The notes: generated by a model from the letters alone, not told the origin. 32,000 nucleotides of DNA from Thermococcus kodakarensis KOD1 (GCF_000009965.1 NC_006624.1:1770001-1802000); one strand, 5' to 3'; shown: positions 14,328 to 23,888, counted from the first letter of the stretch. Translations and numbers: made by a program.

Positions 14328-15515
14328 ATGGAGTACAAGCCGATCAGAAAGGTCGTGAGCGGAAACTACGCGGCTGCCTATGCCGCTTTACACGCGAGAG
14401 TCCAGGTCGTTGCCGCTTACCCGATCACCCCGCAGACGAGCATCATCGAGAAGATAGCCGAGTTCATAGCCAACGGAGAGGCAGACATCCAGTACGTTCC
14501 CGTTGAGAGCGAGCACTCCGCTATGGCCGCATGTATCGGCGCCTCGGCTGCTGGAGCAAGGGCCTTCACCGCTACCTCTGCCCAGGGTCTAGCTTTAATG
14601 CACGAGATGCTCCACTGGGCGAGCGGTGCAAGGCTGCCGATAGTTATGGTGGACGTTAACAGGGCTATGGCTCCGCCGTGGAGCGTTTGGGACGATCAGA
14701 CCGATTCACTCGCGCAGAGAGATACCGGCTGGATGCAGTTCTACGCCGAGAACAACCAGGAGGTTTACGATGGCGTCCTTATGGCCTTCAAGGTGGCCGA
14801 GACGGTAAACCTCCCCGCTATGGTCGTCGAGAGCGCCTTCATCCTGAGCCACACCTACGACGTCGTTGAGATGATTCCGCAGGAGCTCGTTGACGAGTTC
14901 CTTCCACCGAGGAAGCCACTCTACGACCTGGCCGACTTCGAGAGGGAGCCGTTCTCGGTAGGTTCTCTCGCGACTCCAGCAGATTACTACGAGTTCCGCT
15001 ACAAGATACAGAAGGCCATGGAGGAGGCCAAGAAGGTCATCAAGGAAGTGGGTAGGGAGTTCGGCGAGCGCTTTGGAAGGGACTACAGCCAGATGATAGA
15101 GACCTACAGGACTGACGATGCCGACTTCGTCTTCATGGGTATGGGTTCGCTCATGGGCACCGTCAAGGAGGCAGTTGACATCCTCAGGCAGGAGGGCTAC
15201 AAGGTCGGAGCGGCAAAGGTGCGCTGGTTCAGGCCGTTCCCGAAGGAGGAGCTCTACGAGCTTGCAAAGAACGTTGACGGCATAGCAGTCCTCGACAGGA
15301 ACTACTCCTTCGGCATGGAGGGCATACTCTTCACGGAGGCAAAGGGTGCGCTCTACAACACCGACGCGAAGCCGCTCATGAAGAACTACATCGTCGGCCT
15401 CGGCGGCAGGGACTTCACGGTGAACGACGTTAGGAAGATAGCCGAGAACATGAAGGCAGTCATAGAGAAGGGCGAGCTTGACGTAGAGGTGGACTGGTAC
15501 CACCTTAAGAGGTGA
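14328..15515 (+). CDS. vorA: 2-ketoisovalerate:ferredoxin oxidoreductase alpha subunit
   Basis: 395 aa from ATG 14328, with AAYPITPQT and the VESEHSAMAACIGASAAGARAFTATSAQGL pattern of OFOR alpha subunits. It is assigned to VOR by its position in the conserved cluster. Confidence 0.85.
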   Translation: MEYKPIRKVVSGNYAAAYAALHARVQVVAAYPITPQTSIIEKIAEFIANGEADIQYVPVESEHSAMAACIGASAAGARAFTATSAQGLALMHEMLHWASGARLPIVMVDVNRAMAPPWSVWDDQTDSLAQRDTGWMQFYAENNQEVYDGVLMAFKVAETVNLPAMVVESAFILSHTYDVVEMIPQELVDEFLPPRKPLYDLADFEREPFSVGSLATPADYYEFRYKIQKAMEEAKKVIKEVGREFGERFGRDYSQMIETYRTDDADFVFMGMGSLMGTVKEAVDILRQEGYKVGAAKVRWFRPFPKEELYELAKNVDGIAVLDRNYSFGMEGILFTEAKGALYNTDAKPLMKNYIVGLGGRDFTVNDVRKIAENMKAVIEKGELDVEVDWYHLKR

Positions 15516-15520
15516 GAAAG

Positions 15521-16456
15521 ATGGAGATTCCCGAGCAGATTAAGAAAAAGCTCACGCTCCCGGCGGAGGAGCACTTCTATGCCGGTCACACGGCCTGCCA
15601 GGGCTGTGGGGCTGCACTCGGGCTGAGGTACGTCCTCAAGGCCTACGGCAGGAAGACGATATTCGCAATCCCGGCCTGCTGTTCAACAATTATAGCCGGT
15701 GCTTGGCCCTACAACACCCTGGGTGCCAACCTGTTCCAGACGGCCTTTGAGACGACTGGTGCCGTCCTGGGCGGCATCGAGGCCGCTTTGAAGGCCAGGG
15801 GCATAAAGGTCAAGGGCGAAGACGGCGTCATGATCGTCGGCTGGGCCGGCGACGGTGGAACCGCTGACATTGGCCTTCAGGCACTCTCGGGCTTCCTTGA
15901 GAGGGGCCACGATGCTCTCTACATCATGTACGACAACGAGGCCTACATGAACACTGGAATCCAGAGGTCAAGTTCAACCCCCTACGGAGCATGGACGACC
16001 AACACCCCCGGAGGAAAGAGGCACTTCCTCGAGAAGAGGCACAAGAAGAAGGTCATAGACATCGTCATAGCCCACGAGATTCCCTACGCGGCAACTGCAA
16101 GCGTTGCCTACCCTGAGGACTTCATAAGGAAGCTCAAAACAGCTCAGAAGACTCCAGGCCCGAGCTTCATCCAGCTCTTCGCCCCGTGCCCGACCGGCTG
16201 GCGCTCACCCACCGACAAGAGCATTGAGATAGCCAGACTTGCCGTTCAGACGGCCTACTTCCCGCTCTTCGAGTACAAGGAGGGCAAGTACAGGATTAAC
16301 ATGCCAAACCCGAAGAAGGAGCCAAAGCCGATCGAGGAGTTCCTCAAGCTCCAGGGTCGCTTTAAGTATATGACCAAGGAGGACATCCAAGTTCTCCAGG
16401 AGTGGGTGCTCCGCGAGTGGGAGAAGCTCAAGAAGCTCGCCGAGGTCTTCGGCTGA
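15521..16456 (+). CDS. vorB: 2-ketoisovalerate:ferredoxin oxidoreductase beta subunit (TPP-binding)
   Basis: 311 aa from ATG 15521 (AGGTGA RBS), with cluster Cys ligands CQGCG and the TPP motif GDGGTADIG…[10 protein letters not shown]. Confidence 0.85.
   Translation: MEIPEQIKKKLTLPAEEHFYAGHTACQGCGAALGLRYVLKAYGRKTIFAIPACCSTIIAGAWPYNTLGANLFQTAFETTGAVLGGIEAALKARGIKVKGEDGVMIVGWAGDGGTADIGLQALSGFLERGHDALYIMYDNEAYMNTGIQRSSSTPYGAWTTNTPGGKRHFLEKRHKKKVIDIVIAHEIPYAATASVAYPEDFIRKLKTAQKTPGPSFIQLFAPCPTGWRSPTDKSIEIARLAVQTAYFPLFEYKEGKYRINMPNPKKEPKPIEEFLKLQGRFKYMTKEDIQVLQEWVLREWEKLKKLAEVFG
15924..15987 (+). repeat. 64-nt tract perfectly identical to 18444-18507 (vorB copy)
   Basis: Base-by-base comparison: tcatgtacgacaacgaggcctacatgaacactggaatccagaggtcaagttcaaccccctacgg occurs in both genes, offset by exactly 2520 nt. 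Confidence 0.95.
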
Positions 16457-16488
16457 GCTTTCGTTTTCCCTTTGGAAAAAGTTTAAAG
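16457..16488 (+). promoter_or_regulatory. oligo-T terminator-like tract followed by an internal BRE/TATA for porDAB
   Basis: GCTTTCGTTTTCCCTTT is followed by GAAAAAGTTTAAAG about 35 nt upstream of ATG 16520. Confidence 0.45.
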
Positions 16489-16519
16489 TCCACATGATAA
16501 CTCACTCGAGGTGATACAT

Positions 16520-16837
16520 ATGGCTGAGAGTCCGTTTAAGGCCGATATTGAGAGGGTTCAGAAGGAGTACAGCGAAAAGATGACGCCCGGAGCGATAGCT
16601 TACATCCCGGGAAGCAGCGTTATCAACAAGACAGGTTCCTGGAGAGTTTTTATGCCTGAATTCAACCGCGACAAGTGCACTCGCTGCTACCTCTGCTATA
16701 TCTACTGCCCGGAGCCGGCTATCTACCTCGATGAGGAAGGCTACCCGGTCTTTGACTACGACTACTGTAAGGGCTGTGGCATCTGCGCCAACGAATGCCC
16801 TGTTGATGCCATAGTTATGGTTAGGGAGACCAAGTGA
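16520..16837 (+). CDS. porD: pyruvate:ferredoxin oxidoreductase delta subunit (2x[4Fe-4S])
   Basis: MAESPFKADIERVQKEY…, 105 aa, with ferredoxin motifs CTRCYLCYIYCP and CKGCGICANECP. Confidence 0.85.
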   Translation: MAESPFKADIERVQKEYSEKMTPGAIAYIPGSSVINKTGSWRVFMPEFNRDKCTRCYLCYIYCPEPAIYLDEEGYPVFDYDYCKGCGICANECPVDAIVMVRETK

Positions 16838-16848
16838 GGTGGTGAAAG

Positions 16849-18033
16849 ATGCCGATAAGAACCGTTATGAAGGCAAACGAGGCTGCCGCCTGGGCGGCCA
16901 AGCTGGCCAAGCCCAAGGTTATCGCGGCCTTCCCCATTACCCCGTCAACGCTCGTTCCAGAGAAGATTAGTGAATTCGTCGCCAACGGGGAGCTCGACGC
17001 CGAGTTCATCAAGGTCGAGAGCGAGCACTCAGCTATCTCCGCCTGTGTTGGTGCCAGCGCCGCTGGGGTTAGAACATTCACAGCAACCGCTTCCCAGGGT
17101 CTCGCCCTGATGCACGAAATACTCTTCATCGCCGCTGGAATGCGCCTTCCGATAGTCATCGCCGTTGGAAACCGTGCCCTTTCAGCCCCGATCAACATCT
17201 GGAACGACTGGCAGGACACGATAAGCGAGCGCGATACTGGATGGCTCCAGTTCTACGCCGAGAACAACCAGGAAGCTCTGGACCTCATACTCATAGCCTT
17301 CAAGGTAGCCGAGGACGAAAGGGTTCTCCTTCCGGCAATGGTTGGCTTCGACGCGTTCATCCTGACCCACACAGTTGAGCCAGTTGAGATTCCCGACCAG
17401 GAGGTCGTCGACGAGTTCCTCGGTGAGTACGAGCCGAAGCACGCCTACCTCGATCCGGAGAGACCGATAACCCAGGGCACCCTCGCCTTCCCGGCCCACT
17501 ACATGGAGGCCAGATACACCGTCTGGGAGGCCAACGAGAATGCAAAGAAGGTCATCGACGAGGTCTTCGCCGAGTTCGAGAAGAAGTTCGGTAGAAAATA
17601 CCAGAAGGTCGAGGAGTACAGGACTGAGGACGCAGAGATAATCTTCGTCACCATGGGTTCACTCGCCGGAACCCTCAAGGAGTACGTTGACCACCTCAGG
17701 GAGAAGGGCCTCAAGGTCGGCGCTGCGAAGCTCACCGTTTACAGGCCGTTCCCGACCGAAGAAGTCAGGGAGCTCGCCAAGAAGGCCAAGGTTCTCGCGC
17801 TCCTTGAGAAGAACGTCACCTTCAGCGTTGGTGGAGCACTCTTCCAGGACTTCAGCAGGGCCCTCGTCAACCTTGACGAGAGGCCGAAGATCGTCGACTT
17901 CATCCTCGGCCTCGGTGGCAGGGACGTCACATTCAAGGACCTCGACGAGGCACTGGCCATAGCCCAGAAGGCCCTCAACGGTGAGGAGTTTGATGAGGTC
18001 AACTGGATCGGCCTGAGGAAGGAGATACTGTGA
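16849..18033 (+). CDS. porA: pyruvate:ferredoxin oxidoreductase alpha subunit
   Basis: 394 aa, [34 protein letters not shown]…[18 protein letters not shown], the OFOR alpha pattern. Confidence 0.88.
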
Positions 18034-18043
18034 GGTGAGGAAA

Positions 18044-19039
18044 ATGGCCGTTAGGAAACCCCCGATTACCACTCGCGAGTACTGGGCGCCTGGTCACGCC
18101 GCCTGTGCCGGCTGTGGCTGTGCCACCGCTCTCAAGCTCGCCACCAAGGCCTTCAGCGAGGCCATGGAGGAGAAATACGGTGATCCCAATGCATTCGCCA
18201 TAGCCCAGGCCACAGGCTGTATGGAGGTCGTTTCGGCAGTCTTCCCGTACACCGCTTGGAAGGTCCCCTGGGTGCACGTCGCTTTCGAGAACGCCGCGGC
18301 CGCTGCCAGCGGTGTTGAAGCGGCCTGGAAGAAGATCGGCAGAAAGGGTAAGATACTTGCCATCGGTGGAGACGGTGGAACAGCCGACATCGGTCTCCAG
18401 GCCCTCTCGGGAATGCTCGAGAGGAGGCACAACGTCGTCTACCTCATGTACGACAACGAGGCCTACATGAACACTGGAATCCAGAGGTCAAGTTCAACCC
18501 CCTACGGTGCTTGGACCACCACCTCACCGCCCGGAAAGTACTCAATCGGTGAGGACAAGCCCAAGAAGTGGGTCGCCCTCATCGCTGCTGCCCACCAGGT
18601 TCCGTACGTTGCCACCGCGAGCATCGGCAACCCCTTCGACTTCGTCAGGAAGATGAAGAAGGCCGCTAAGGTCGATGGTCCGGCTTTCGTCCAGGTTCAC
18701 TGCACCTGCCCGACCGGATGGAAGAGCCCGCTCGAGAAGGGTGTCGAGATAGCTCGCCTTGCCATCGAGACCGGCGTCTGGCCGCTCTTCGAGATCGAGA
18801 ACGGCGACTTCTTCAACATCAAGATCCAGCCGCCCGGAGGAGGCGCCAAGGTCACCCGCGAGGGCGGCAGGATAGTCGCCATAGAGTTCAAGAAGCCCAT
18901 CGAGGAGTACCTCAAGCTCCAGGGCAGGTTCAAGCACCTCTTCAAGAGGCCTGAGGCAATCGATGAGCTGCGCGAGCAGATCAAGGCCATGTGGAAGACC
19001 CTCGGCGTTGATGTCACCCTCCCGAAGCTGGAGGAGTGA
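18044..19039 (+). CDS. porB: pyruvate:ferredoxin oxidoreductase beta subunit (TPP-binding)
   Basis: 331 aa from ATG 18044, with [24 protein letters not shown] and CTCPTGW. Confidence 0.88.
18444..18507 (+). repeat. 64-nt tract perfectly identical to 15924-15987 (porB copy)
   Basis: See the partner entry. The flanking codons of the two paralogs differ at many synonymous sites. Confidence 0.95.
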
Positions 19040-19040
19040 T

Positions 19041-19064
19041 TTTCAGTTTCTTTTTCTTTTAAAA
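19041..19064 (+). promoter_or_regulatory. oligo-T terminator-like tract after porB, abutting a TTTTAAAA box
   Basis: TTTCAGTTTCTTTTTCTTTTAAAA lies immediately after the porB stop. The TTTTAAAA at 19057-19064 could be the TATA box for the downstream operon. Confidence 0.4.
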
Positions 19065-19077
19065 TTCTTGATACCGT

Positions 19078-20061
19078 GTGGCTTCTTGGGTTTCGTGGAA
19101 GAAAATTCTTTCCATGCTCTTCGGGTTTTTGATTTTGGGATTGGCGTTCAGCGGTGCGAGTGCAACGGCGAACCTCGTCAACAGCACAGTGAACGGCACC
19201 GTAACGGTTCCGTCAGAGTTAACTCCTGAGAAGAAACCCGGAGACGAGGTACGGCCGCAGTTTGGAGGGGCTACAGTTGTTGTGGAGCCCTTCATAGAGG
19301 CTTTTGTCCCCGGTGTAGGATGGGTAGTGGCGGTTGGAAGCCTCGTGGCGTTAATTGCCAAATACTTGTACTCAAAGCCTGTCAGCGAGTTCACTGAGGG
19401 GTTTGTAAGTGAAATTCCAGATAGGATTACTTACAATGGGCAGGAGCTCGCAAAGGGCGTTAAGACTAACTTCTGGGGAACGGAAGTAGAGATTGGCTAT
19501 GGGTACGTTAAGAAAAAATGGGGCGGTCTAAAGAAGGAAACCGTCATAGTGAAGTCGGTCATAACAATAACCAGGGATGAAGTCAAGGCTGTAGAAGACT
19601 TATTCAGCCCAAAGGAGTACGGCAAACTCTTGGCACAAGCGTACTTAAACGGCTGGGATGCCAACGATGCTAAAAAGCTTGCAGAGGATTTTGACAGGGA
19701 GTACAGGGGTTTCAGGGCACACTTCAATGGGGCAAACCTCGATTGTGGAGTATTCGAAGGAGGAGATGTTATCATTGATGCAAAAGGGGCAAAACATATT
19801 ATTTTCAACCACATCATGAAAAAGCCTGGAAAGGATCAGTTCACTCACATTTCCGCCGTGGATCTTTTAAACGAAATGGGCAAGGTTATAGAAAACCCAG
19901 ACAAAATTAAATGCGGAGACATTATCAGTGGAAAACAGAGAATAGTACTTGTTAAATATTCCCCAAAGCTGGGAAAGAAAGTGGTGGTAGTGATTGAGAG
20001 AATCAAGTGGGGGATGTACCGGATAGTTACGGCATTCCCACCATCTTCAAGGAGATATTGA
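19078..20061 (+). CDS. membrane-anchored protein of unknown function with a DUF4258/BECR-like (RelE-fold toxin-like) C-terminal module (gene A)
   Basis: 327-aa ORF with a GTG start (an alternative ATG is at 19114). It has an N-terminal signal/TM segment (KKILSMLFGFLILGLAFSGASA), a loop with NST and NGT sequons, and a second TM (FVPGVGWVVAVGSLVALIAKYLY). The C-terminus KHIIFNHIMKK…VIENPDKI…GKQRIVLVKY…KKVVVVIER…YRIVTAFPP resembles the H…/…enP..i…/…vvVv…/…ivTay pattern of DUF4258-type toxins, judged from memory. Confidence 0.6.
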   Translation: MASWVSWKKILSMLFGFLILGLAFSGASATANLVNSTVNGTVTVPSELTPEKKPGDEVRPQFGGATVVVEPFIEAFVPGVGWVVAVGSLVALIAKYLYSKPVSEFTEGFVSEIPDRITYNGQELAKGVKTNFWGTEVEIGYGYVKKKWGGLKKETVIVKSVITITRDEVKAVEDLFSPKEYGKLLAQAYLNGWDANDAKKLAEDFDREYRGFRAHFNGANLDCGVFEGGDVIIDAKGAKHIIFNHIMKKPGKDQFTHISAVDLLNEMGKVIENPDKIKCGDIISGKQRIVLVKYSPKLGKKVVVVIERIKWGMYRIVTAFPPSSRRY

Positions 20062-20068
20062 CAGGGAG

Positions 20069-20932
20069 GTGATTTCAATCTTTGCTTTTTCATTCTTCCT
20101 ACAGGAGGGAGATAGGGGATTTCCAGTGCTGGTGCTCGAAGAGGGGCCAGTTTTCATCAGTGAAGACCCAGTGACGCTGGATGAATTCATAAGCTCCCTA
20201 AAGGCACTCCACTCGATGGATGCTCTCCCGAAAAAGCTCTGGGACCTCAAGATAATGGCTGAGGGTGGATGGGTTCACCTGACCCTTCGGGATGGTGGGG
20301 AAGTACAGCTCACCCGTGACAACTTCATCGAGGCAATCCGAACTTCCATCCAGAACCTGAAAGCGGTTCTCAATAATAAACCCGTGAGGATGGGGTGGCT
20401 CAGGTTCAAACTAAAGCCGCCTTCGCATGAAGTTCTTGAGATGTTCGGTGAACCTGAGGATATCATGGACGAGTACGAAGTTCAAGTTTACGGGAGCACG
20501 TACGTACTGGAGGCGTTTGTTAATCTCGAAGGGTACGTTGAGGAGCTTAAACTTCTCAAGGCGTTTGTGGCGGATGGCAAACTGCCTGCGGAGGAGTGGC
20601 GGGTAAAGTGGAACGTTGATGGTGAAATCAAGAGGCTGTCTTCCAAAGGGGCAAAAAAGCCGGAGGATAGGGGCCTTCTCCGCGAACTGGCGGGCCTTAA
20701 AAAGCTCTCAGCAGGAGCAGCTCCTCCTTTCGTTCGCTTTACCCTTTCAACCTATGACCCCTTTGAAGTTCTCTACGCGGCAGACTCTGGAAAGGGAGAA
20801 TTTTTGCTGGCATTCGTCCTGTATTCTGGCATGGCCGTCAAAGTCCCAAAGAACGTCTTCCTGAGGGCCATCGATGAGGCCATCAAAGATGCAGAAAAGG
20901 AACTTAAAAGGGTAAAGCTATCTGGGAGGTGA
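20069..20932 (+). CDS. hypothetical soluble protein (gene B)
   Basis: 287-aa ORF beginning 7 nt after the gene A stop, with its GTG inside GGGAGGTGA. An alternative GTG lies about 60 nt downstream. No recognisable family. Confidence 0.55.
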   Translation: MISIFAFSFFLQEGDRGFPVLVLEEGPVFISEDPVTLDEFISSLKALHSMDALPKKLWDLKIMAEGGWVHLTLRDGGEVQLTRDNFIEAIRTSIQNLKAVLNNKPVRMGWLRFKLKPPSHEVLEMFGEPEDIMDEYEVQVYGSTYVLEAFVNLEGYVEELKLLKAFVADGKLPAEEWRVKWNVDGEIKRLSSKGAKKPEDRGLLRELAGLKKLSAGAAPPFVRFTLSTYDPFEVLYAADSGKGEFLLAFVLYSGMAVKVPKNVFLRAIDEAIKDAEKELKRVKLSGR

Positions 20933-20936
20933 GCTC

Positions 20937-21323
20937 ATGTCTTTCCCCTTTATCTTCTTTGGCTTCGAGGAGGCTCTCAGGGGCGAGGTGCCTGCGGATG
21001 CTCTAACCATTGCCATCAAACACGGGATGAAAACAGAAATTGGCATAATTGCCAGGAAGGGTTCTGAGAGAGTGGTGATAGGGTGCAAGAGAAACGCACA
21101 TAAAATAAGCGGGAACAGCTTGCAAAGTACGCTGAGTACGCCATCAATAAGGGAATCAGAAAAGATTGAGGTGTACTATGCTGGAGGCATTGAGAACATA
21201 AGGGGCTACTATTACTACACCCAGTACCTGCCAAAGGAGATAAAGTCCAGGTTTGGTGTGGACGTTGAAGTGCGTTACCTAGCTTCAGAATTCGACCGAA
21301 CCTGTTTCTTTATTTTTCATTAA
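20937..21323 (+). CDS. hypothetical protein (gene C)
   Basis: 128-aa ORF whose ATG lies 5 nt after GGGAGGTGA and 4 nt after the gene B stop. No recognisable family. Confidence 0.55.
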   Translation: MSFPFIFFGFEEALRGEVPADALTIAIKHGMKTEIGIIARKGSERVVIGCKRNAHKISGNSLQSTLSTPSIRESEKIEVYYAGGIENIRGYYYYTQYLPKEIKSRFGVDVEVRYLASEFDRTCFFIFH

Positions 21324-21347
21324 TGAATGAACCATGGGGGGAGTGGT

Positions 21348-22133
21348 ATGGGAACCACGTATTATGTTGTCGCCGTGTTTGATAGGCCTTGGGGAGAAGT
21401 GCTTGAGAAGCTCTCGCGCGAGTTCAAGTACACTCGCGAACTCGCGTACCAGCGGGAAAGACGAGAAGAGCACCTGAAGTTCATCTTTGATATGAGGGGA
21501 TTTAGGCTGGTTGCAGTGGGAGAACTGCACTACGAGCTGAAAACCACCGAGGAAGATTCCTTTGACTGGCTTGAGGTCGAAACGTACTCAAAGGAGAACA
21601 TGACGCTCCTCCAGATTGGAGTCTCCACCGGCAGGTGGCTGTTCGTCCTAAGCCCCGAACTTATGAAGTTTCTCGGAAAGCTGATGAGGGTTGGGGCGGT
21701 CCTCATCTGTGGTTACACAGACGACCACGACCTCAGAGATGCAGGCTTTGAAGAAAACAACCAGTTCCTTTTCTACGAATGGTTGGTTGAGACTGTGAAA
21801 AGAAAAAAGCTTGAAATCGTTCCTTCGGACGTTACCATAGTGAAGAAAGAACTCTTAGACTTGGAGGACGGTCTCTACGAGCTGATTGAAAGACCTGGAA
21901 GGGAGGATGAAGAGTATGTCCTAATCAAGAGATTGGATAGTTATAAAATACTTGTTTCAGTAAGAGAAAGCGATTTAACCGATGAAGAGAGCTACCGAGA
22001 GCTAATTGAAGACAAAACATGGTTCAGCTCTCATATAATTGTGGTGGTCTTTAGGCGAATTGGAAAAAAGGTCGAGAACGAGCTTCTCATTAAGAGGGTA
22101 GAAGAATACTTCAAAGCGCAAACAGAAGAGTGA
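21348..22133 (+). CDS. hypothetical acidic protein (gene D)
   Basis: The ORF is open from 21327, but the ATG at 21348 follows GGGGGGAG and is preferred (261 aa). The gene is AT-rich. No recognisable family. Confidence 0.55.
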   Translation: MGTTYYVVAVFDRPWGEVLEKLSREFKYTRELAYQRERREEHLKFIFDMRGFRLVAVGELHYELKTTEEDSFDWLEVETYSKENMTLLQIGVSTGRWLFVLSPELMKFLGKLMRVGAVLICGYTDDHDLRDAGFEENNQFLFYEWLVETVKRKKLEIVPSDVTIVKKELLDLEDGLYELIERPGREDEEYVLIKRLDSYKILVSVRESDLTDEESYRELIEDKTWFSSHIIVVVFRRIGKKVENELLIKRVEEYFKAQTEE

Positions 22134-22155
22134 CAGCGCTTGAAACTTTTCTGAA

Positions 22156-22692
22156 ATGTCAGCATCAGGCAATCCGATGAAAAATCTCCCTCCTTTTCCC
22201 ACACCGGAAGCCTCTGAAGTAATAGCCGAGAGCTACAGCGCCATAGACCAGCTCCTCTACTCCGGTGACGTCCCCGAGCTTGGGAAAAATGTCCTAGTGA
22301 ACTTCGGCAACGCGCACAGCATAACCCTCGTCGGGACAGCTTTCCTCGTGCTCGCGGCGGCCCTTGAAAAGAGGAGGAAAACAATGGTGGGCCTTAACGA
22401 CGCGGCCGTGTTAAGCTACACCTCTGCAGGCGGCGCTGGGCTCCCACTGCTCACAAAACCGATGCTGAGAAGAGTAACCGTGGTTGCAAGCGAGTACGCC
22501 CTCGATTCGCTCCTCAACCTGGCCGGTCCCGTTTTGCTCCTCTACCACGACCCCGACGTCCAGAGCTTCGTTTACGAGACCAGCGGCGTACCGCCGGGGC
22601 CGAGCAGGAAGCACGTCCACAAGGGGGAGGGGGCCTTCATCTACCGCACCCCTGAAACGGTAAACGTGGAGTGGGGCAGGATGCCCCTTTAA
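22156..22692 (+). CDS. hypothetical protein (gene E), genome-typical GC
   Basis: 178-aa ORF (an alternative ATG is at 22177). Its stop overlaps the csd stop in a TTAA. No family recognised. Confidence 0.5.
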   Translation: MSASGNPMKNLPPFPTPEASEVIAESYSAIDQLLYSGDVPELGKNVLVNFGNAHSITLVGTAFLVLAAALEKRRKTMVGLNDAAVLSYTSAGGAGLPLLTKPMLRRVTVVASEYALDSLLNLAGPVLLLYHDPDVQSFVYETSGVPPGPSRKHVHKGEGAFIYRTPETVNVEWGRMPL

Positions 22693-23888
22693 CCTCTCAA
22701 ACCTCTTATCAGATTCTCCATAACGCTCAGAAACGTCTCGACCTCCTCAACGCTGTTGTAGACGTGGAATGAAGCCCTAACAGTTCCCTCCACTCCGAGC
22801 TTCTTCATCGCGGGCAGGGCGCAGTGGTGACCGGAGCGAACCATGATGTTGTGCTCGTCGAGTATAGCGGCAACGTCGTGAGGATGTAGCGGCGGGACGT
22901 TGAAACTGACGACGCCAGCGTGCTTTTTCAGGTTCCGCGGCCCGTACCATGGAACCTCAAGCTCGTCAAGGCCTTCTGTTGTGCGCTTCACCAGCTTGTG
23001 CTCCTGTTTTTCGATCTTCTCTATTCCAATCCTCTCGATGTAGCGGATCCCAGCGGCGAGGCCTATGGCCCCTCCAATGTTCGGCGTTCCCGCCTCAAAG
23101 CGCTCCGGCGGCTCTGCCAGCTTGTAAGAGTCAAGGTCAACGTCCTCGATTGTTCCCCCTCCTATGAGTGGCGGCTCGAAGACGTCGAAGAACTCGCTGT
23201 TGATGTAGAGGACACCAATCCCAGTCGGTCCCATCGGTCCCTTGTGGCCAGAAAAGCCCAGAAAGTCAGCGTAGAGCTTTTTCACATCAACCTCCATATG
23301 GCCAGCACTCTGGGCCGCATCAACAACGAATATCGCGCCCTCCTCCTTCGCCATCTTTCCAAGCTCCTCGACCTCGTGGATTACTCCAAGGGCGTTCGAG
23401 ACATGCTGAACTGCCACGAGCTTCGCTCCCTTGATCTTCTTCTCGGCATCGGCGAGGTCGAGGTTCCCCTCCAGGTCGCCCTCTATGAACTCCAGCCTGA
23501 GGCCCTTCTTCTTCGCGAGCCTCTGCCAGGGGAGTAGGTCTGAGTGGTGCTCGTACGGTGTGGTCACTATCTTGTCTCCCTTCTCAAAGATGTGCTCCAG
23601 CCCGAGGGCGACGAGGTTGAGGCTCTCGCTCGTGTTCTTGGTGAAGACTATCTCCTCGAACTTCGCGTTGATGAAGTCCGCCACGACCTTTCTGCTCTCC
23701 TCGTACTTGTGAGTCGCTATCTGCGAGAGCCTGTGGACGCCCCTGTGGACGTTGGCGCGGTACTTCAGGTAGTACTCATCCATTGCCTCGATGACTGGCT
23801 TTGGTGTGAGTGATGTGGCGGTGTTGTCAAAGTAAATGACCTCGCTCGTGAGCGGTATGTCCTTTCTAATATCGTCCGGTATCTTCAT
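22689..23888 (-). CDS. csd: cysteine desulfurase (class V aminotransferase, SufS/Csd type)
   Basis: 399 aa with the PLP-lysine motif SGHKGPMGPTGIGVLY and the catalytic-cysteine loop RSGHHCA. Confidence 0.9.
   Translation of the reverse strand: MKIPDDIRKDIPLTSEVIYFDNTATSLTPKPVIEAMDEYYLKYRANVHRGVHRLSQIATHKYEESRKVVADFINAKFEEIVFTKNTSESLNLVALGLEHIFEKGDKIVTTPYEHHSDLLPWQRLAKKKGLRLEFIEGDLEGNLDLADAEKKIKGAKLVAVQHVSNALGVIHEVEELGKMAKEEGAIFVVDAAQSAGHMEVDVKKLYADFLGFSGHKGPMGPTGIGVLYINSEFFDVFEPPLIGGGTIEDVDLDSYKLAEPPERFEAGTPNIGGAIGLAAGIRYIERIGIEKIEKQEHKLVKRTTEGLDELEVPWYGPRNLKKHAGVVSFNVPPLHPHDVAAILDEHNIMVRSGHHCALPAMKKLGVEGTVRASFHVYNSVEEVETFLSVMENLIRGLRG

What the first reader, a model, noticed from the sequence alone, without database searches (positions are those of the whole stretch)
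19041..22133. Candidate undescribed conflict cassette: four tightly coupled unknown genes between porB and the csd locus
Four same-strand ORFs (A 19078-20061, B 20069-20932, C 20937-21323, D 21327/21348-22133) are separated by only 4-25 nt. Each is preceded by a strong GGAGGTGA-type RBS. They sit right after the oligo-T tract that ends the POR operon and have their own TTTTAAAA box. I recognise no family for B, C or D. A combines a membrane anchor with a C-terminal module that looks like a RelE-fold/BECR toxin. Parts of the cassette are markedly AT-rich. By hand count, GC per 60-nt line is 26/60 at 19801, 22/60 at 19861, 25/60 at 21121 and 21/60 at 21901, against 36/60 at 18781 in porB and 33/60 at 22441 in gene E. 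Gene B is near genome-typical, so the composition is mosaic. Both flanks are conserved core metabolism. A toxin-like membrane protein followed by several small soluble partners is the layout of polymorphic toxin-immunity or abortive-infection modules, which are poorly charted in Thermococcales.
Basis: partly seen in the sequence, partly recalled or inferred. Interest (0 to 1): 0.78.

Follow-up and report, generated by a model that had tools for sequence, protein, structure and literature searches.

The report
Polymorphic nuclease toxin–immunity island in Thermococcus
The genes between porB and csd of Thermococcus kodakarensis (TK1985-TK1989) are a strain-variable inserted island that encodes a membrane-targeted RNase-type toxin, its likely immunity protein and leftovers of a second toxin-immunity pair; this gives a genetically tractable archaeon in which archaeal polymorphic toxins could be tested, although toxicity and delivery have not been shown.

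Summary
The ORFs and the AT-rich mosaic composition are real. The window is T. kodakarensis KOD1, and the genes are TK1985-TK1989.

The whole block A-E (about 19044-22700) is an insertion. In four close relatives porB is followed directly by csd.

Gene A belongs to a Thermococcales-only family with four parts:
- a conserved Sec-type leader with two invariant N-glycosylation sequons;
- a hydrophobic segment plus a swappable stem;
- a conserved helical handle;
- a swappable C-terminal toxin domain.

Twenty homologs fall into 9 PBECR/BECR-like RNase C-terminal classes, shuffled against 5 stem classes. Other family members carry a PD-(D/E)xK nuclease instead.

Each C-terminal class is followed by its own downstream gene family in 19 of 19 pairs. 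B follows A-type C-termini and D follows the REase C-termini.

C is a truncated orphan REase C-terminus with both catalytic acids changed to Gly. E is the 3' remnant of a 299-aa gene.

Caveats:
- KOD1's gene A has lost the family's promoter, SD and ATG.
- The predicted topology places the nuclease on the cytoplasmic side, and the delivery route is unknown.
- Nothing has been tested experimentally.
- Makarova et al. 2019 could not be read, so an earlier computational description cannot be excluded.

The parts
19044..22700 (+). Whole inserted island (TK1985-TK1989) between the porB stop and the csd stop
   Evidence: In L003, L005, L007 and L021 (porB 93-97% aa identity), DNA homology to the window stops at 19039-19043 and resumes at 22702-22717. 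In those loci csd follows porB within about 20-120 bp. There is no tRNA, integrase or flanking direct repeat.
19040..19077 (+). Oligo-T tract after porB plus TTTTAAAA box (19057-19064). This sequence replaces the family's conserved promoter/operator/SD block.
   Evidence: Nine other toxin genes share a block of about 110 bp (TTGTTAAA..TTTTTAAAG..TGGATTTrTTATCCA..GGAGGTG..ATG) that KOD1 lacks. Homology to other leaders starts at 19095/19096, where KOD1 has TCG in place of the family's ATG.
19078..20061 (+). Gene A (TK1985): polymorphic toxin. The start is either GTG 19078 or ATG 19114.
   Evidence: A is 100% identical to the KOD1 'hypothetical membrane protein' P0001, which is annotated from 19114.
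19096..19263 (+). A, leader: Sec-type signal peptide (hydrophobic residues 10-28, ASATA), invariant sequons N35-S-T and N39-G-T, and invariant P54-G-D..P60
   Evidence: The leader is shared at 71-79% identity with P0030-P0032, whose bodies are different.
19264..19593 (+). A, hydrophobic segment (residues 75-97) plus type I stem domain (beta-rich)
   Evidence: In the roughly 98%-identical genome of Thermococcus sp. JCM 11816, window 19199-19590 is replaced by a type II stem.
19594..19710 (+). A, conserved helical handle (DLFSPKEYGKLLAQAYLNGWDANDAKKLAEDF). This is the boundary after which C-termini diverge, and orphan modules keep it.
19711..20061 (+). A, C-terminal toxin domain (class CT1): PBECR/BECR-like predicted RNase with H240, H245 and T318
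   Evidence: pI is 9.8.
20069..20932 (+). Gene B (TK1986): candidate cognate immunity protein for CT1 (ImmB family). It is acidic and has no signal peptide or TM segment.
   Evidence: B-like genes follow CT1 in KOD1, L081 and L086. A divergent B-like gene follows CT7 in L083 and in an L082 orphan. Homologs occur only in Thermococcales. The AF2 model has pLDDT 82 and no PDB match. An alternative start is GTG 20126.
20937..21323 (+). Gene C (TK1987): chimeric ORF. The first 28 codons come from sequence that follows ImmB elsewhere. The rest (21021-21296) is an N-terminally truncated PD-(D/E)xK toxin C-terminus with the catalytic D and E both changed to G.
   Evidence: C is 39% identical over 92 aa to the Mrr_cat C-terminus of P0032 (E 7e-18). 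EIDII becomes EIGII and IECKR becomes IGCKR. The junction is seen.
21348..22133 (+). Gene D (TK1988): candidate immunity protein for the REase-type toxin (ImmD family)
   Evidence: D is 42-48% identical to the genes directly after the REase toxins in L001, L085 and L089. The family is small, with 23 representatives in 1.84 billion proteins. pI is 4.95.
22156..22692 (+). ORF E (TK1989): 5'-truncated remnant. Residues 20-178 correspond to residues 141-299 of a 299-aa gene of unknown function.
   Evidence: E is 98% identical to L085:6404-7303. KOD1 lacks about 458 nt that are present in L085.

Best explanation
TK1985-TK1989 is a polymorphic toxin-immunity island of a type found only in Thermococcales.

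Shown by comparison:
- Gene A is modular. It has a conserved Sec-type leader with a glycosylatable spacer, a hydrophobic segment plus an exchangeable stem, a conserved helical handle, and an exchangeable C-terminal nuclease domain.
- Each C-terminal class travels with its own downstream gene.
- Displaced ('orphan') C-terminus/immunity pairs accumulate behind the main pair.
- The island sits in hot spots that are empty or differently filled in related genomes.

Inferred:
- The KOD1 C-terminus (CT1) is a metal-independent BECR-fold endoRNase that uses H240 (possibly with H245) and T318.
- B binds and neutralises CT1 in the producer's cytoplasm.
- C is a dead relic of a DNase-type (PD-(D/E)xK) C-terminus.
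- D is kept because it protects against REase-type toxins made by neighbouring strains.
- E is debris.
- New toxin alleles arise by homologous recombination at the handle, and also on either side of the stem.

Speculative:
- The toxin acts on neighbouring Thermococcales cells.
- The predicted topology is N-out/C-in, so the toxin may reach its targets through membrane vesicles, nanotubes or membrane fusion rather than through a dedicated secretion machine.

In KOD1 the toxin gene has lost the family's own promoter, SD and ATG. The immunity genes may therefore be the main selected function in this strain.
For: Insertion:
- Four close relatives have porB followed directly by csd.
- The same junction in MAG DJKA121 (L010 + L085) holds a different allele: a REase toxin, a D-like gene and five more ORFs.
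- T. eurythermalis and T. thermotolerans carry different alleles at a second shared site.

Modularity:
- Among 20 full-length homologs there are 9 C-terminal classes and 5 stem classes, and the two are discordant. P0008 is 24% identical to A in the stem but 96% in the C-terminus; P0006 is 90% in the stem but 36% in the C-terminus.
- P0031, P0032 and L089 share only the leader and end in Mrr_cat-type nucleases with an intact D..ExK motif.

Pairing:
- In 19 of 19 main or orphan pairs, the C-terminal class predicts the next gene family. The pairings are CT1 with ImmB, CT7 with a divergent ImmB, CT2 with I220, CT6 with I170, CT9 with I213, REase with ImmD, and CT5/8 with the 215/352 family.

Orphans:
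- Orphan modules keep the handle.
- L001 shows the reciprocal arrangement: a REase main toxin with an A-type orphan.

Signs of horizontal transfer:
- B shares 91% nt identity with Palaeococcus ferrophilus over 989 nt.
- There is a stem swap of about 400 bp between genomes that are 98% identical.

Toxin fold:
- PBECR3 is hit by 9 of 20 members and PBECR2 by 6 of 20. P0012 reaches the gathering score.
- In the AF2 model (pLDDT about 90 over residues 100-327), the C-terminal domain has helices followed by four strands. H240 and H245 lie in helix 235-247 and T318 lies in the last strand. This matches the PBECR active-site description.
- The top-probability Foldseek hits are RelE-fold toxins (7vd7_A, BrnT, HigB2) and phage polyvalent 'Nuclease' proteins.

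Charge and localisation:
- The C-terminal domain has pI 9.8, B 5.5 and D 4.95. B and D have no signal peptide or TM segment.
Against: - No experiment shows toxicity, RNase activity, neutralisation or competition.
- KOD1's own C-terminus scores below the Pfam thresholds (20.6 against 30, and 17.8 against 27.1).
- The Foldseek E-values are not significant; the best is 2e-3.
- B and D match no known immunity family or solved fold.
- KOD1's gene A lacks the family's promoter, operator, SD and ATG, so it may be weakly expressed or silent.
- The predicted topology (signal peptide, invariant sequons, then a hydrophobic segment) leaves the nuclease on the producer's cytoplasmic side.
- None of the 11 loci encodes a secretion apparatus.
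- AF2 draws the hydrophobic segment as beta strands, so the topology itself is uncertain.
- The sample is small. Several loci are MAGs or an error-rich draft (L086), and KOD1 and L086 are not independent.
Confidence: 0.78

Rival explanations
1. The island is an intracellular toxin-antitoxin or abortive-infection module. The membrane-anchored nuclease stays in the producing cell and is held in check by B. It is released or activated when a virus or envelope damage perturbs the glycosylated ecto-loop. Diversity would then reflect an arms race with viruses rather than with neighbouring cells.
For: - The predicted N-out/C-in topology keeps the nuclease in the producer's cytoplasm.
- No secretion genes are found in any locus.
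- BECR/RelE-fold RNases are common TA toxins. The Foldseek hits include 7vd7, BrnT and HigB2.
- TA genes lie near some loci: HicAB in L001 and PIN in L081.
Against: - There are no PADLOC hits.
- Arrays of 5'-truncated orphan C-termini that keep a recombination handle, each with its own downstream gene, and orphan immunity genes kept without a toxin (L084, L087), are hallmarks of inter-strain polymorphic toxins rather than of TA or Abi modules.
- The conserved Sec leader with invariant N-glycosylation sequons points to surface exposure.
- B and D lack the DNA-binding domains typical of type II antitoxins.
Confidence: 0.12
2. In KOD1 the island is an inert, decaying relic of such a system. A is not expressed, C and E are debris, and B and D persist only by drift.
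For: - The family's promoter, SD and ATG are lost.
- C is truncated and both catalytic acids are replaced.
- E is truncated.
- Leader-only fragments and frameshifted B-like genes occur in other genomes, so decay is common.
Against: - A, B and D are full-length and intact, and every family-invariant residue is present.
- The same alleles are intact in the JCM 11816 lineage.
- A lies 38 nt after the strongly expressed POR operon and has a TATA-like box, so transcription is plausible.
Confidence: 0.08
3. The genes are conserved housekeeping or POR/csd-associated accessory genes of Thermococcales.
For: The only support is their position between core metabolic genes.
Against: - The block is absent from the four closest relatives with sequence across the junction and from all other porB loci examined.
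- A homologs lie at different chromosomal sites in different genomes.
- The phyletic distribution is patchy.
Confidence: 0.01

Closest known systems
Bacterial polymorphic toxin systems with orphan modules (CdiA-CT/CdiI, Rhs-CT/RhsI, MafB), as defined by Zhang et al. 2012 (PMC3482391)
   Same: - A conserved N-terminal part is followed by a sharply variable C-terminal nuclease after a conserved junction motif (compare VENN in CdiA).
- The cognate immunity gene lies directly downstream and co-varies with the C-terminus.
- Downstream arrays hold 5'-truncated orphan C-terminus/immunity pairs.
- Orphan immunity genes occur.
- Alleles are exchanged horizontally.
   Different: - There is no T5SS/T6SS/T7SS, Rhs/YD, filamentous haemagglutinin, PAAR, LXG or MafB-N module.
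- The whole toxin is only about 320-360 aa.
- The leader, stems, handle and all the immunity families are restricted to Thermococcales.
- The stem is itself exchangeable.
- The predicted topology leaves the C-terminus on the cytoplasmic side.
PBECR domains of phage and conjugative-element polyvalent proteins and MuF toxins (Iyer et al. 2017, PMC5512222; Pfam PF18809/PF18810/PF18812)
   Same: - The HMMs give their best hits to the A-family C-termini.
- The core is a helix followed by four strands.
[quoted passage not shown]
- The top BFVD structural hits are phage 'Nuclease'/LPD polyvalent proteins.
   Different: - Here the domain is the C-terminus of a small chromosomal protein with a Sec leader, not part of a virion-packaged polyvalent protein.
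- No hits were found in the phage, plasmid or IMG/VR collections.
- KOD1's own score is below the Pfam threshold.
Nuclease colicins/bacteriocins (colicin D, E5) with acidic immunity proteins
   Same: - Small modular toxins in which N-terminal targeting modules precede a basic BECR RNase domain.
- An adjacent acidic immunity gene.
- Domain shuffling between alleles.
   Different: - No plasmid or lysis gene is present.
- The toxin has a Sec leader plus a hydrophobic anchor.
- Orphan arrays are present.
- B (287 aa) is much larger than colicin immunity proteins and is unrelated to them.
VARTIG hypervariable module of Thermococcales (Makarova et al. 2021, PMC8416519)
   Same: - Specific to Thermococcales.
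- Patchy distribution.
- Inter-species recombination of the C-terminal part of the first gene.
- Variable co-directed downstream genes.
   Different: - VARTIG is built around a large Ig-domain protein, and no toxin domain could be identified in it.
- The island described here has recognisable nuclease C-termini and no Ig domains.
Archaeal PTS predicted by Makarova et al. 2019 (mBio 10:e00715-19), and sulfolobicins
   Same: - Archaeal inter-microbial conflict systems.
- Nucleases are the commonest archaeal PTS toxins (as summarised in PMC8416519).
- Sulfolobicins are vesicle-associated archaeal protein toxins (PMC10117752).
   Different: - The 2019 paper could not be read here, so it is unknown whether it lists this family.
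- Sulfolobicins (SulA/SulB) are unrelated in sequence and are not modular nuclease toxins.

Membership tests
Polymorphic toxin system (sensu Zhang et al. 2012) | Homologs share the N-terminal region but carry alternative, unrelated or highly diverged C-terminal toxin domains | tested here: met
   There are 9 PBECR-like C-terminal classes plus a PD-(D/E)xK C-terminus behind one leader. Stem and C-terminus identities are discordant.
Polymorphic toxin system (sensu Zhang et al. 2012) | A specific immunity gene lies immediately downstream of each toxin type | tested here: met
   The C-terminal class predicts the downstream gene family in 19 of 19 main or orphan pairs across 11 loci. Physical neutralisation was not tested.
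Polymorphic toxin system (sensu Zhang et al. 2012) | Downstream orphan C-terminus/immunity cassettes share a junction sequence with the main gene | tested here: met
   KOD1 has C+D. L081, L082, L084, L001 and L085 have orphans that retain the handle and part of the stem.
Polymorphic toxin system (sensu Zhang et al. 2012) | A recognised trafficking module or secretion system (T5SS, T6SS, T7SS, TcdB/TcaC, MuF, PVC, MafB-N and so on) | tested here: not met
   Only a Sec-type signal peptide is present. There are no Pfam hits in the N-terminal 210 residues and no secretion genes in any locus.
Polymorphic toxin system (sensu Zhang et al. 2012) | The toxin inhibits the growth of non-immune neighbours, and immunity protects against it | not testable with these tools
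   This needs expression and competition experiments.
PBECR / BECR-fold endoRNase (Pfam PF18810, PF18812) | HMM score at or above the gathering threshold | tested here: not met
   KOD1 A scores 20.6 on PBECR3 (threshold 30) and 17.8 on PBECR2 (threshold 27.1). Homolog P0012 reaches 27.1 on PBECR2, which equals the threshold. PBECR3 is hit by 9 of 20 members and PBECR2 by 6 of 20 at E<=0.05.
PBECR / BECR-fold endoRNase (Pfam PF18810, PF18812) | [quoted passage not shown] | tested here: met
   The AF2 model has H235-247, H260-272, E276-283, E286-295, E300-310 and E313-320 at pLDDT about 90. The top-probability Foldseek hits are RelE-fold toxins and phage polyvalent nucleases, but their E-values are not significant.
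PBECR / BECR-fold endoRNase (Pfam PF18810, PF18812) | [quoted passage not shown] 2017) | tested here: met
   H240 and H245 are invariant and lie in helix 235-247. T318 is conserved in at least 90% of members and lies in strand 313-320.
PD-(D/E)xK restriction-endonuclease fold (Mrr_cat PF04471), tested for gene C | Homology to a domain that scores as Mrr_cat | tested here: met
   C is 39% identical over 92 aa to the C-terminus of P0032 (E 7e-18). P0032 scores 24.2 on Mrr_cat, above the threshold of 21.
PD-(D/E)xK restriction-endonuclease fold (Mrr_cat PF04471), tested for gene C | The catalytic D ... (D/E)xK residues and the complete domain | tested here: not met
   C has EIGII and IGCKR where the toxins have EIDII and IECKR. 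It also lacks the first 39 or so residues of the domain. C is not an active member.
Type II toxin-antitoxin (RelE/ParE-type) | A small cytosolic toxin paired with an antitoxin that carries a DNA-binding domain, forming a two-gene operon | tested here: not met
   A has a signal peptide, a hydrophobic segment and a 200-aa N-terminal part. B has no HTH, RHH or AbrB hit.
Known anti-phage defence systems (PADLOC-DB 2.0) | A match to any defence protein model | tested here: not met
   A-E give no hit at E<=1.

The most novel reading that the evidence does not exclude
The toxin is a type I membrane protein. Only a short glycosylated N-terminal stub is outside the cell, and the nuclease faces the cytoplasm. 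It is passed to neighbouring Thermococcales cells inside membrane vesicles or nanotubes, or by transient membrane fusion. The nuclease then ends up facing the recipient's cytoplasm, with no dedicated secretion machine involved. The exchangeable stem and hydrophobic module would set the specificity of sorting or fusion. This would be a new delivery mode for polymorphic toxins, and a native archaeal invention rather than a bacterial import.
Probability: 0.2. Interest if true: 0.85.

Novelty: new variant of a known kind. Interest (0 to 1): 0.6.

Why it matters
Archaeal polymorphic toxin systems have been predicted but, as of the 2021 statement in PMC8416519, not characterised experimentally. Zhang et al. 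2012 regarded the few archaeal cases as imports from bacteria.

This finding differs in three ways:
- It is a compact system limited to Thermococcales. The leader, stems, junction motif and at least seven candidate immunity families are all its own, which suggests a native archaeal system.
- It lies in T. kodakarensis, the main genetic model for hyperthermophilic archaea. Toxicity, immunity, RNA targets at 85 °C, topology and delivery can therefore all be tested with existing tools.
- TK1985-TK1989 are annotated only as hypothetical proteins. This analysis explains them and defines hot spots of strain-level variation (porB/csd and AsnC/radical-SAM).

If delivery turns out to be vesicle- or fusion-mediated, it would link the abundant vesicle production of Thermococcales to inter-strain conflict.

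Tried and rejected
Searches that gave nothing useful:
- NCBIfam, PADLOC and PHROGs scans of A-E gave no meaningful hit.
- B's weak FtsQ_DivIB_C hit (20.5 bits against a threshold of 21) is not backed by structure. A Foldseek search of a good B model (pLDDT 82) returned only meaningless matches, with TM about 0.15 and rmsd about 20 Å.
- A profile of the A family against PDB sequences found nothing.
- tblastn of A against the plasmid and phage collections, and a scan of IMG/VR contigs, gave no match. The island is therefore not obviously viral or plasmid cargo.
- There is no tRNA, integrase or flanking repeat at the island ends.
- Papers: TK1985-TK1989 appear in no held paper (the only hit for 'TK1988' is a bat-genome paper in which the term is not this gene). 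Makarova et al. 2019 could not be retrieved. Zhang 2012, the VARTIG paper, the 2022 variability paper and the 2026 bacteriocin preprint do not describe this family.

Searches limited by the tools:
- The leader-only profile search returned only 45-111-aa leader fragments, which are decayed copies, and no new C-terminal types.
It gave only two loci, both of which fit the pairing rules.
Named Thermococcus genomes are therefore under-sampled at the junction.
- Two look-ups (P0015, P0022) found no contig on record.

The housekeeping explanation was rejected on the basis.

Full report
**1. The observation.**
- A best hit of 100% identity identifies the window as Thermococcus kodakarensis KOD1.
- porB is TK1984. 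By position, A-E are therefore TK1985-TK1989, and csd is TK1990 (from memory).
- The gaps between the ORFs are 7, 4 and 3 or 24 nt.
- GC falls to 0.41-0.46 in the 3' part of A, in C and at the 3' end of D. B is 0.51-0.52 and the flanks are 0.57-0.60.
- The RBS claim holds only in part. GGAGGTGA occurs exactly twice, before or overlapping B's start and before C. D (true start 21348) has GGGGGGAGTGG. A has no SD.
- Pfam gives A's C-terminus sub-threshold PBECR3 and PBECR2 hits. NCBIfam, PADLOC and PHROGs give nothing.

**2. The block is an insertion and includes E.**
- A scan of species-representative genomes with porB gave about 25 Thermococcaceae loci.
- In the four close relatives that have sequence past porB (L003, L005, L007, L021), csd follows porB within about 20-120 bp.
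- In those loci, DNA homology to the window stops at 19039-19043 and resumes at 22702-22717. All of A-E, about 3.66 kb, is therefore extra.
- No other porB locus carries any module of the system. There are two exceptions.
 - In MAG DJKA121, contig L010 ends 74 nt into an A-like leader after porB, and contig L085 of the same assembly runs from that leader to csd.
 - Thermococcus sp. JCM 11816 (L086) is the same lineage as KOD1.

**3. Gene A is a modular, polymorphic protein.**
- Homologs exist only in a patchy set of Thermococcus, Pyrococcus and Palaeococcus genomes and in vent metagenomes.
- Three proteins (P0030-P0032) share only the first 60 or so residues with A, at 71-79% identity. Their bodies are different. 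P0031 and P0032 end in a PD-(D/E)xK (Mrr_cat) nuclease.
- In an alignment of 20 full-length A-type proteins, identity collapses right after a conserved helical 'handle', DLFSPKEYGKLLAQAYLNGWDANDAKKLAEEF.
- At 65% identity or more there are 9 C-terminal classes and 5 stem classes, and the two are discordant. P0008 is 24% identical to A in the stem but 96% in the C-terminus. P0006 is 90% identical in the stem but 36% in the C-terminus.
- JCM 11816 is about 98% identical to the window over 13 kb on both sides. The exception is 19199-19590, inside gene A, where it carries a type II stem like that of Palaeococcus ferrophilus. This is either a very recent intragenic replacement or, less likely, an assembly chimera.

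**4. Toxin domains.**
- PBECR3 is hit by 9 of 20 A-type members, PBECR2 by 6 of 20 (P0012 at the gathering score), and PBECR1, EndoU_bacteria and DUF4258 by a few.
- The AF2 model of A is confident over residues 100-327. Its C-terminal domain is two helices followed by four strands.
- The invariant H240 and H245 lie in the first helix, and the nearly invariant T318 lies in the last strand. [quoted passage not shown]
- Foldseek E-values are not significant. Even so, the highest-probability PDB hits are RelE-fold RNase toxins (7vd7_A, BrnT, HigB2). The top viral hits are phage 'Nuclease'/LPD polyvalent proteins, the context in which PBECR was defined.
- I therefore read CT1 as a BECR-fold endoRNase. 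Membership of the Pfam PBECR families is not formally met for the KOD1 protein.

**5. Pairing with downstream genes.** I collected 11 loci and mapped all the modules by tblastn. The C-terminal class predicts the next gene family in every case:

| C-terminal class | Next gene family | Loci |
|---|---|---|
| CT1 | ImmB | KOD1, T. thioreducens, JCM 11816 |
| CT7 | divergent ImmB | LS1 main pair; T. eurythermalis orphan |
| CT2 | I220 | T. thermotolerans and L088 main pairs; T. thioreducens and P. ferrophilus orphans |
| CT6 | I170 | T. eurythermalis (L082) main pair |
| CT9 | I213 | P. ferrophilus (L084) main pair |
| REase | ImmD | L001, L085 and L089 main pairs; KOD1, JCM 11816 and L085 orphans |
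| CT5/8 | 215/352 family | two orphans |

- That makes 19 pairs with no exception, although KOD1 and JCM 11816 are not independent.
- Orphan C-termini are 5'-truncated but keep the handle and part of the stem.
- L001 is the mirror image of KOD1: the main toxin is REase-type and the orphan is A-type.
- Orphan ImmB genes with no toxin sit at the ends of the arrays in P. ferrophilus and T. thermotolerans (89% and 83% aa identity). B plus its flanks shares 91% nt identity with Palaeococcus over 989 nt, which indicates recent transfer.
- B and D are acidic (pI 5.5 and 4.95) and have no signal peptide or TM segment. CT1 is basic (pI 9.8).
- Both families are tiny and confined to this group.
- B gives a good AF2 model with no match in the PDB.

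**6. What C, D and E are.**
- The first 28 codons of C correspond to sequence that follows ImmB in Palaeococcus and in L085. The remainder (21021-21296) is 39% identical to residues 265-355 of P0032.
- C lacks the first part of the nuclease domain. Both catalytic acids are changed to Gly: EIDII becomes EIGII and IECKR becomes IGCKR.
- C is therefore a displaced, dead REase C-terminus, and D is the immunity candidate that belongs with it (42-48% identical to the genes after the intact REase toxins).
- Residues 20-178 of E are 98% identical to residues 141-299 of a 299-aa ORF next to csd in L085. KOD1 lacks about 458 nt of that gene. E is a remnant of unknown original function.

**7. Topology and expression.**
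- The leader has a Sec-type signal peptide (hydrophobic residues 10-28, ASATA), two invariant N-X-T sequons (N35, N39) and an invariant PGD..P motif.
- A hydrophobic segment follows (residues 75-97). It is present in all three unrelated stem types.
- This predicts an N-out/C-in orientation, with the nuclease on the cytoplasmic side. AF2, however, draws this segment as beta strands at moderate confidence.
- No locus encodes a secretion apparatus.
- Nine other toxin genes share an upstream block of about 110 bp with a TATA-like box, a palindrome (TGGATTTrTTATCCA), GGAGGTG and ATG.
- KOD1 and JCM 11816 lack that block. Homology to the other leaders begins exactly after the position of the family's ATG, where KOD1 has TCG.
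- Translation must therefore start at GTG 19078 or ATG 19114, and transcription must depend on the TTTTAAAA box or on read-through from POR.

**8. Mechanism.**
- Shown: the locus has the comparative-genomic signature of a polymorphic toxin system.
- Inferred:
 - CT1 is an RNase that B neutralises.
 - D is kept as protection against REase-type toxins from neighbours.
 - New alleles arise by recombination at the handle and around the stem.
- Speculative: delivery. T. kodakarensis vesicles mirror the protein content of the cell membrane and can transfer plasmid DNA, and sulfolobicins are vesicle-associated archaeal toxins (PMC10117752). A C-in anchored toxin could therefore travel in vesicles or through membrane fusion.
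- Rivals: an intracellular TA/Abi-like module (0.12), an inert relic in KOD1 (0.08), or housekeeping genes (rejected).

**9. Comparison with known systems, and novelty.**
- The locus works like CDI/Rhs/MafB-type polymorphic toxin loci and like nuclease colicins. It has none of their trafficking modules.
- Its leader, stems, handle and immunity families have no Pfam match and occur only in Thermococcales.
- It is distinct from VARTIG, which lacks any toxin domain.
- Zhang et al. 2012 do not mention Thermococcus.
- No held paper names TK1985-TK1989.
- Makarova et al. 2019 could not be read, so an earlier computational listing cannot be excluded.

**Verdict:** a new variant of a known kind. Interest is moderate to high, because it puts archaeal polymorphic toxins into a tractable model organism.

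Noticed in passing
L001:7880-8012, L081/L082/L083/L084:6880-7012, L087:6880-7030, L088:3480-3630, L089:4880-5020, L010:11150-11290; absent at window 19040-19095: Nine toxin genes at unrelated chromosomal sites share an upstream block of about 110 bp. It holds a TATA-like TTTTTAAAG, a palindrome TGGATTTrTTATCCA between the TATA box and the SD (a possible operator), GGAGGTG and ATG. KOD1 has lost the entire block.
   Followed up: partly
window 19199-19590 compared with L086:6074-6477: Thermococcus sp. JCM 11816 is about 98% identical to the window over 13 kb. The exception is a segment of about 400 bp inside gene A, where a type II stem (85% identical to that of P. ferrophilus) replaces KOD1's type I stem. 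This is either a very recent recombination or an assembly chimera in an error-rich draft.
   Followed up: partly
L082:7001-11300 and L087:7001-10740: T. eurythermalis and T. thermotolerans carry different toxin alleles (stem I/CT6 and stem II/CT2) at the same site, between an AsnC-type regulator and a radical-SAM gene. This is a second hot spot besides porB/csd.
   Followed up: partly
window 19678-19701 and 20045-20068: A 24-nt direct repeat (79% identity; core GAT(T/A)TTGACAGGGAG) lies at the end of the handle and again at the end of gene A. It brackets the CT1 module exactly. It may be chance.
   Followed up: no
window 19273-19335 (A residues 66-86): AF2 models the hydrophobic segment as beta strands packed on the stem (pLDDT 64-81) rather than as a TM helix. 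The membrane topology is therefore uncertain.
   Followed up: no
L085:2195-5481 and L085:6404-7303: The DJKA121 allele of the porB/csd island holds three further ORFs with no Pfam hit (352, 282 and 383 aa) and the full-length 299-aa version of E. Their roles are unknown.
   Followed up: partly
P0055 (Pyrococcus yayanosii, 261 aa); P0033-P0042: P0055 is a read-through ORF that joins the last residues of a CT1-type toxin (..YRIVTAFPPSSGRY) to an ImmB N-terminus. Leader-only fragments of 45-111 aa occur in T. litoralis, T. celericrescens, T. sp. 21S7 and T. eurythermalis. Decay of these loci is common.
   Followed up: no
window 20069-20125: Several databases annotate B homologs from the equivalent of GTG 20126 (264-269 aa). 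However, the first 19 residues are conserved even in a 44%-identical homolog and form a confident beta strand in the AF2 model. The longer form is therefore plausible.
   Followed up: partly
window 15512-19039: The VOR and POR operons lie in tandem, with paralogous beta subunits about 50% identical. The many long antisense ORFs listed there look like by-products of the high GC content, not genes.
   Followed up: no
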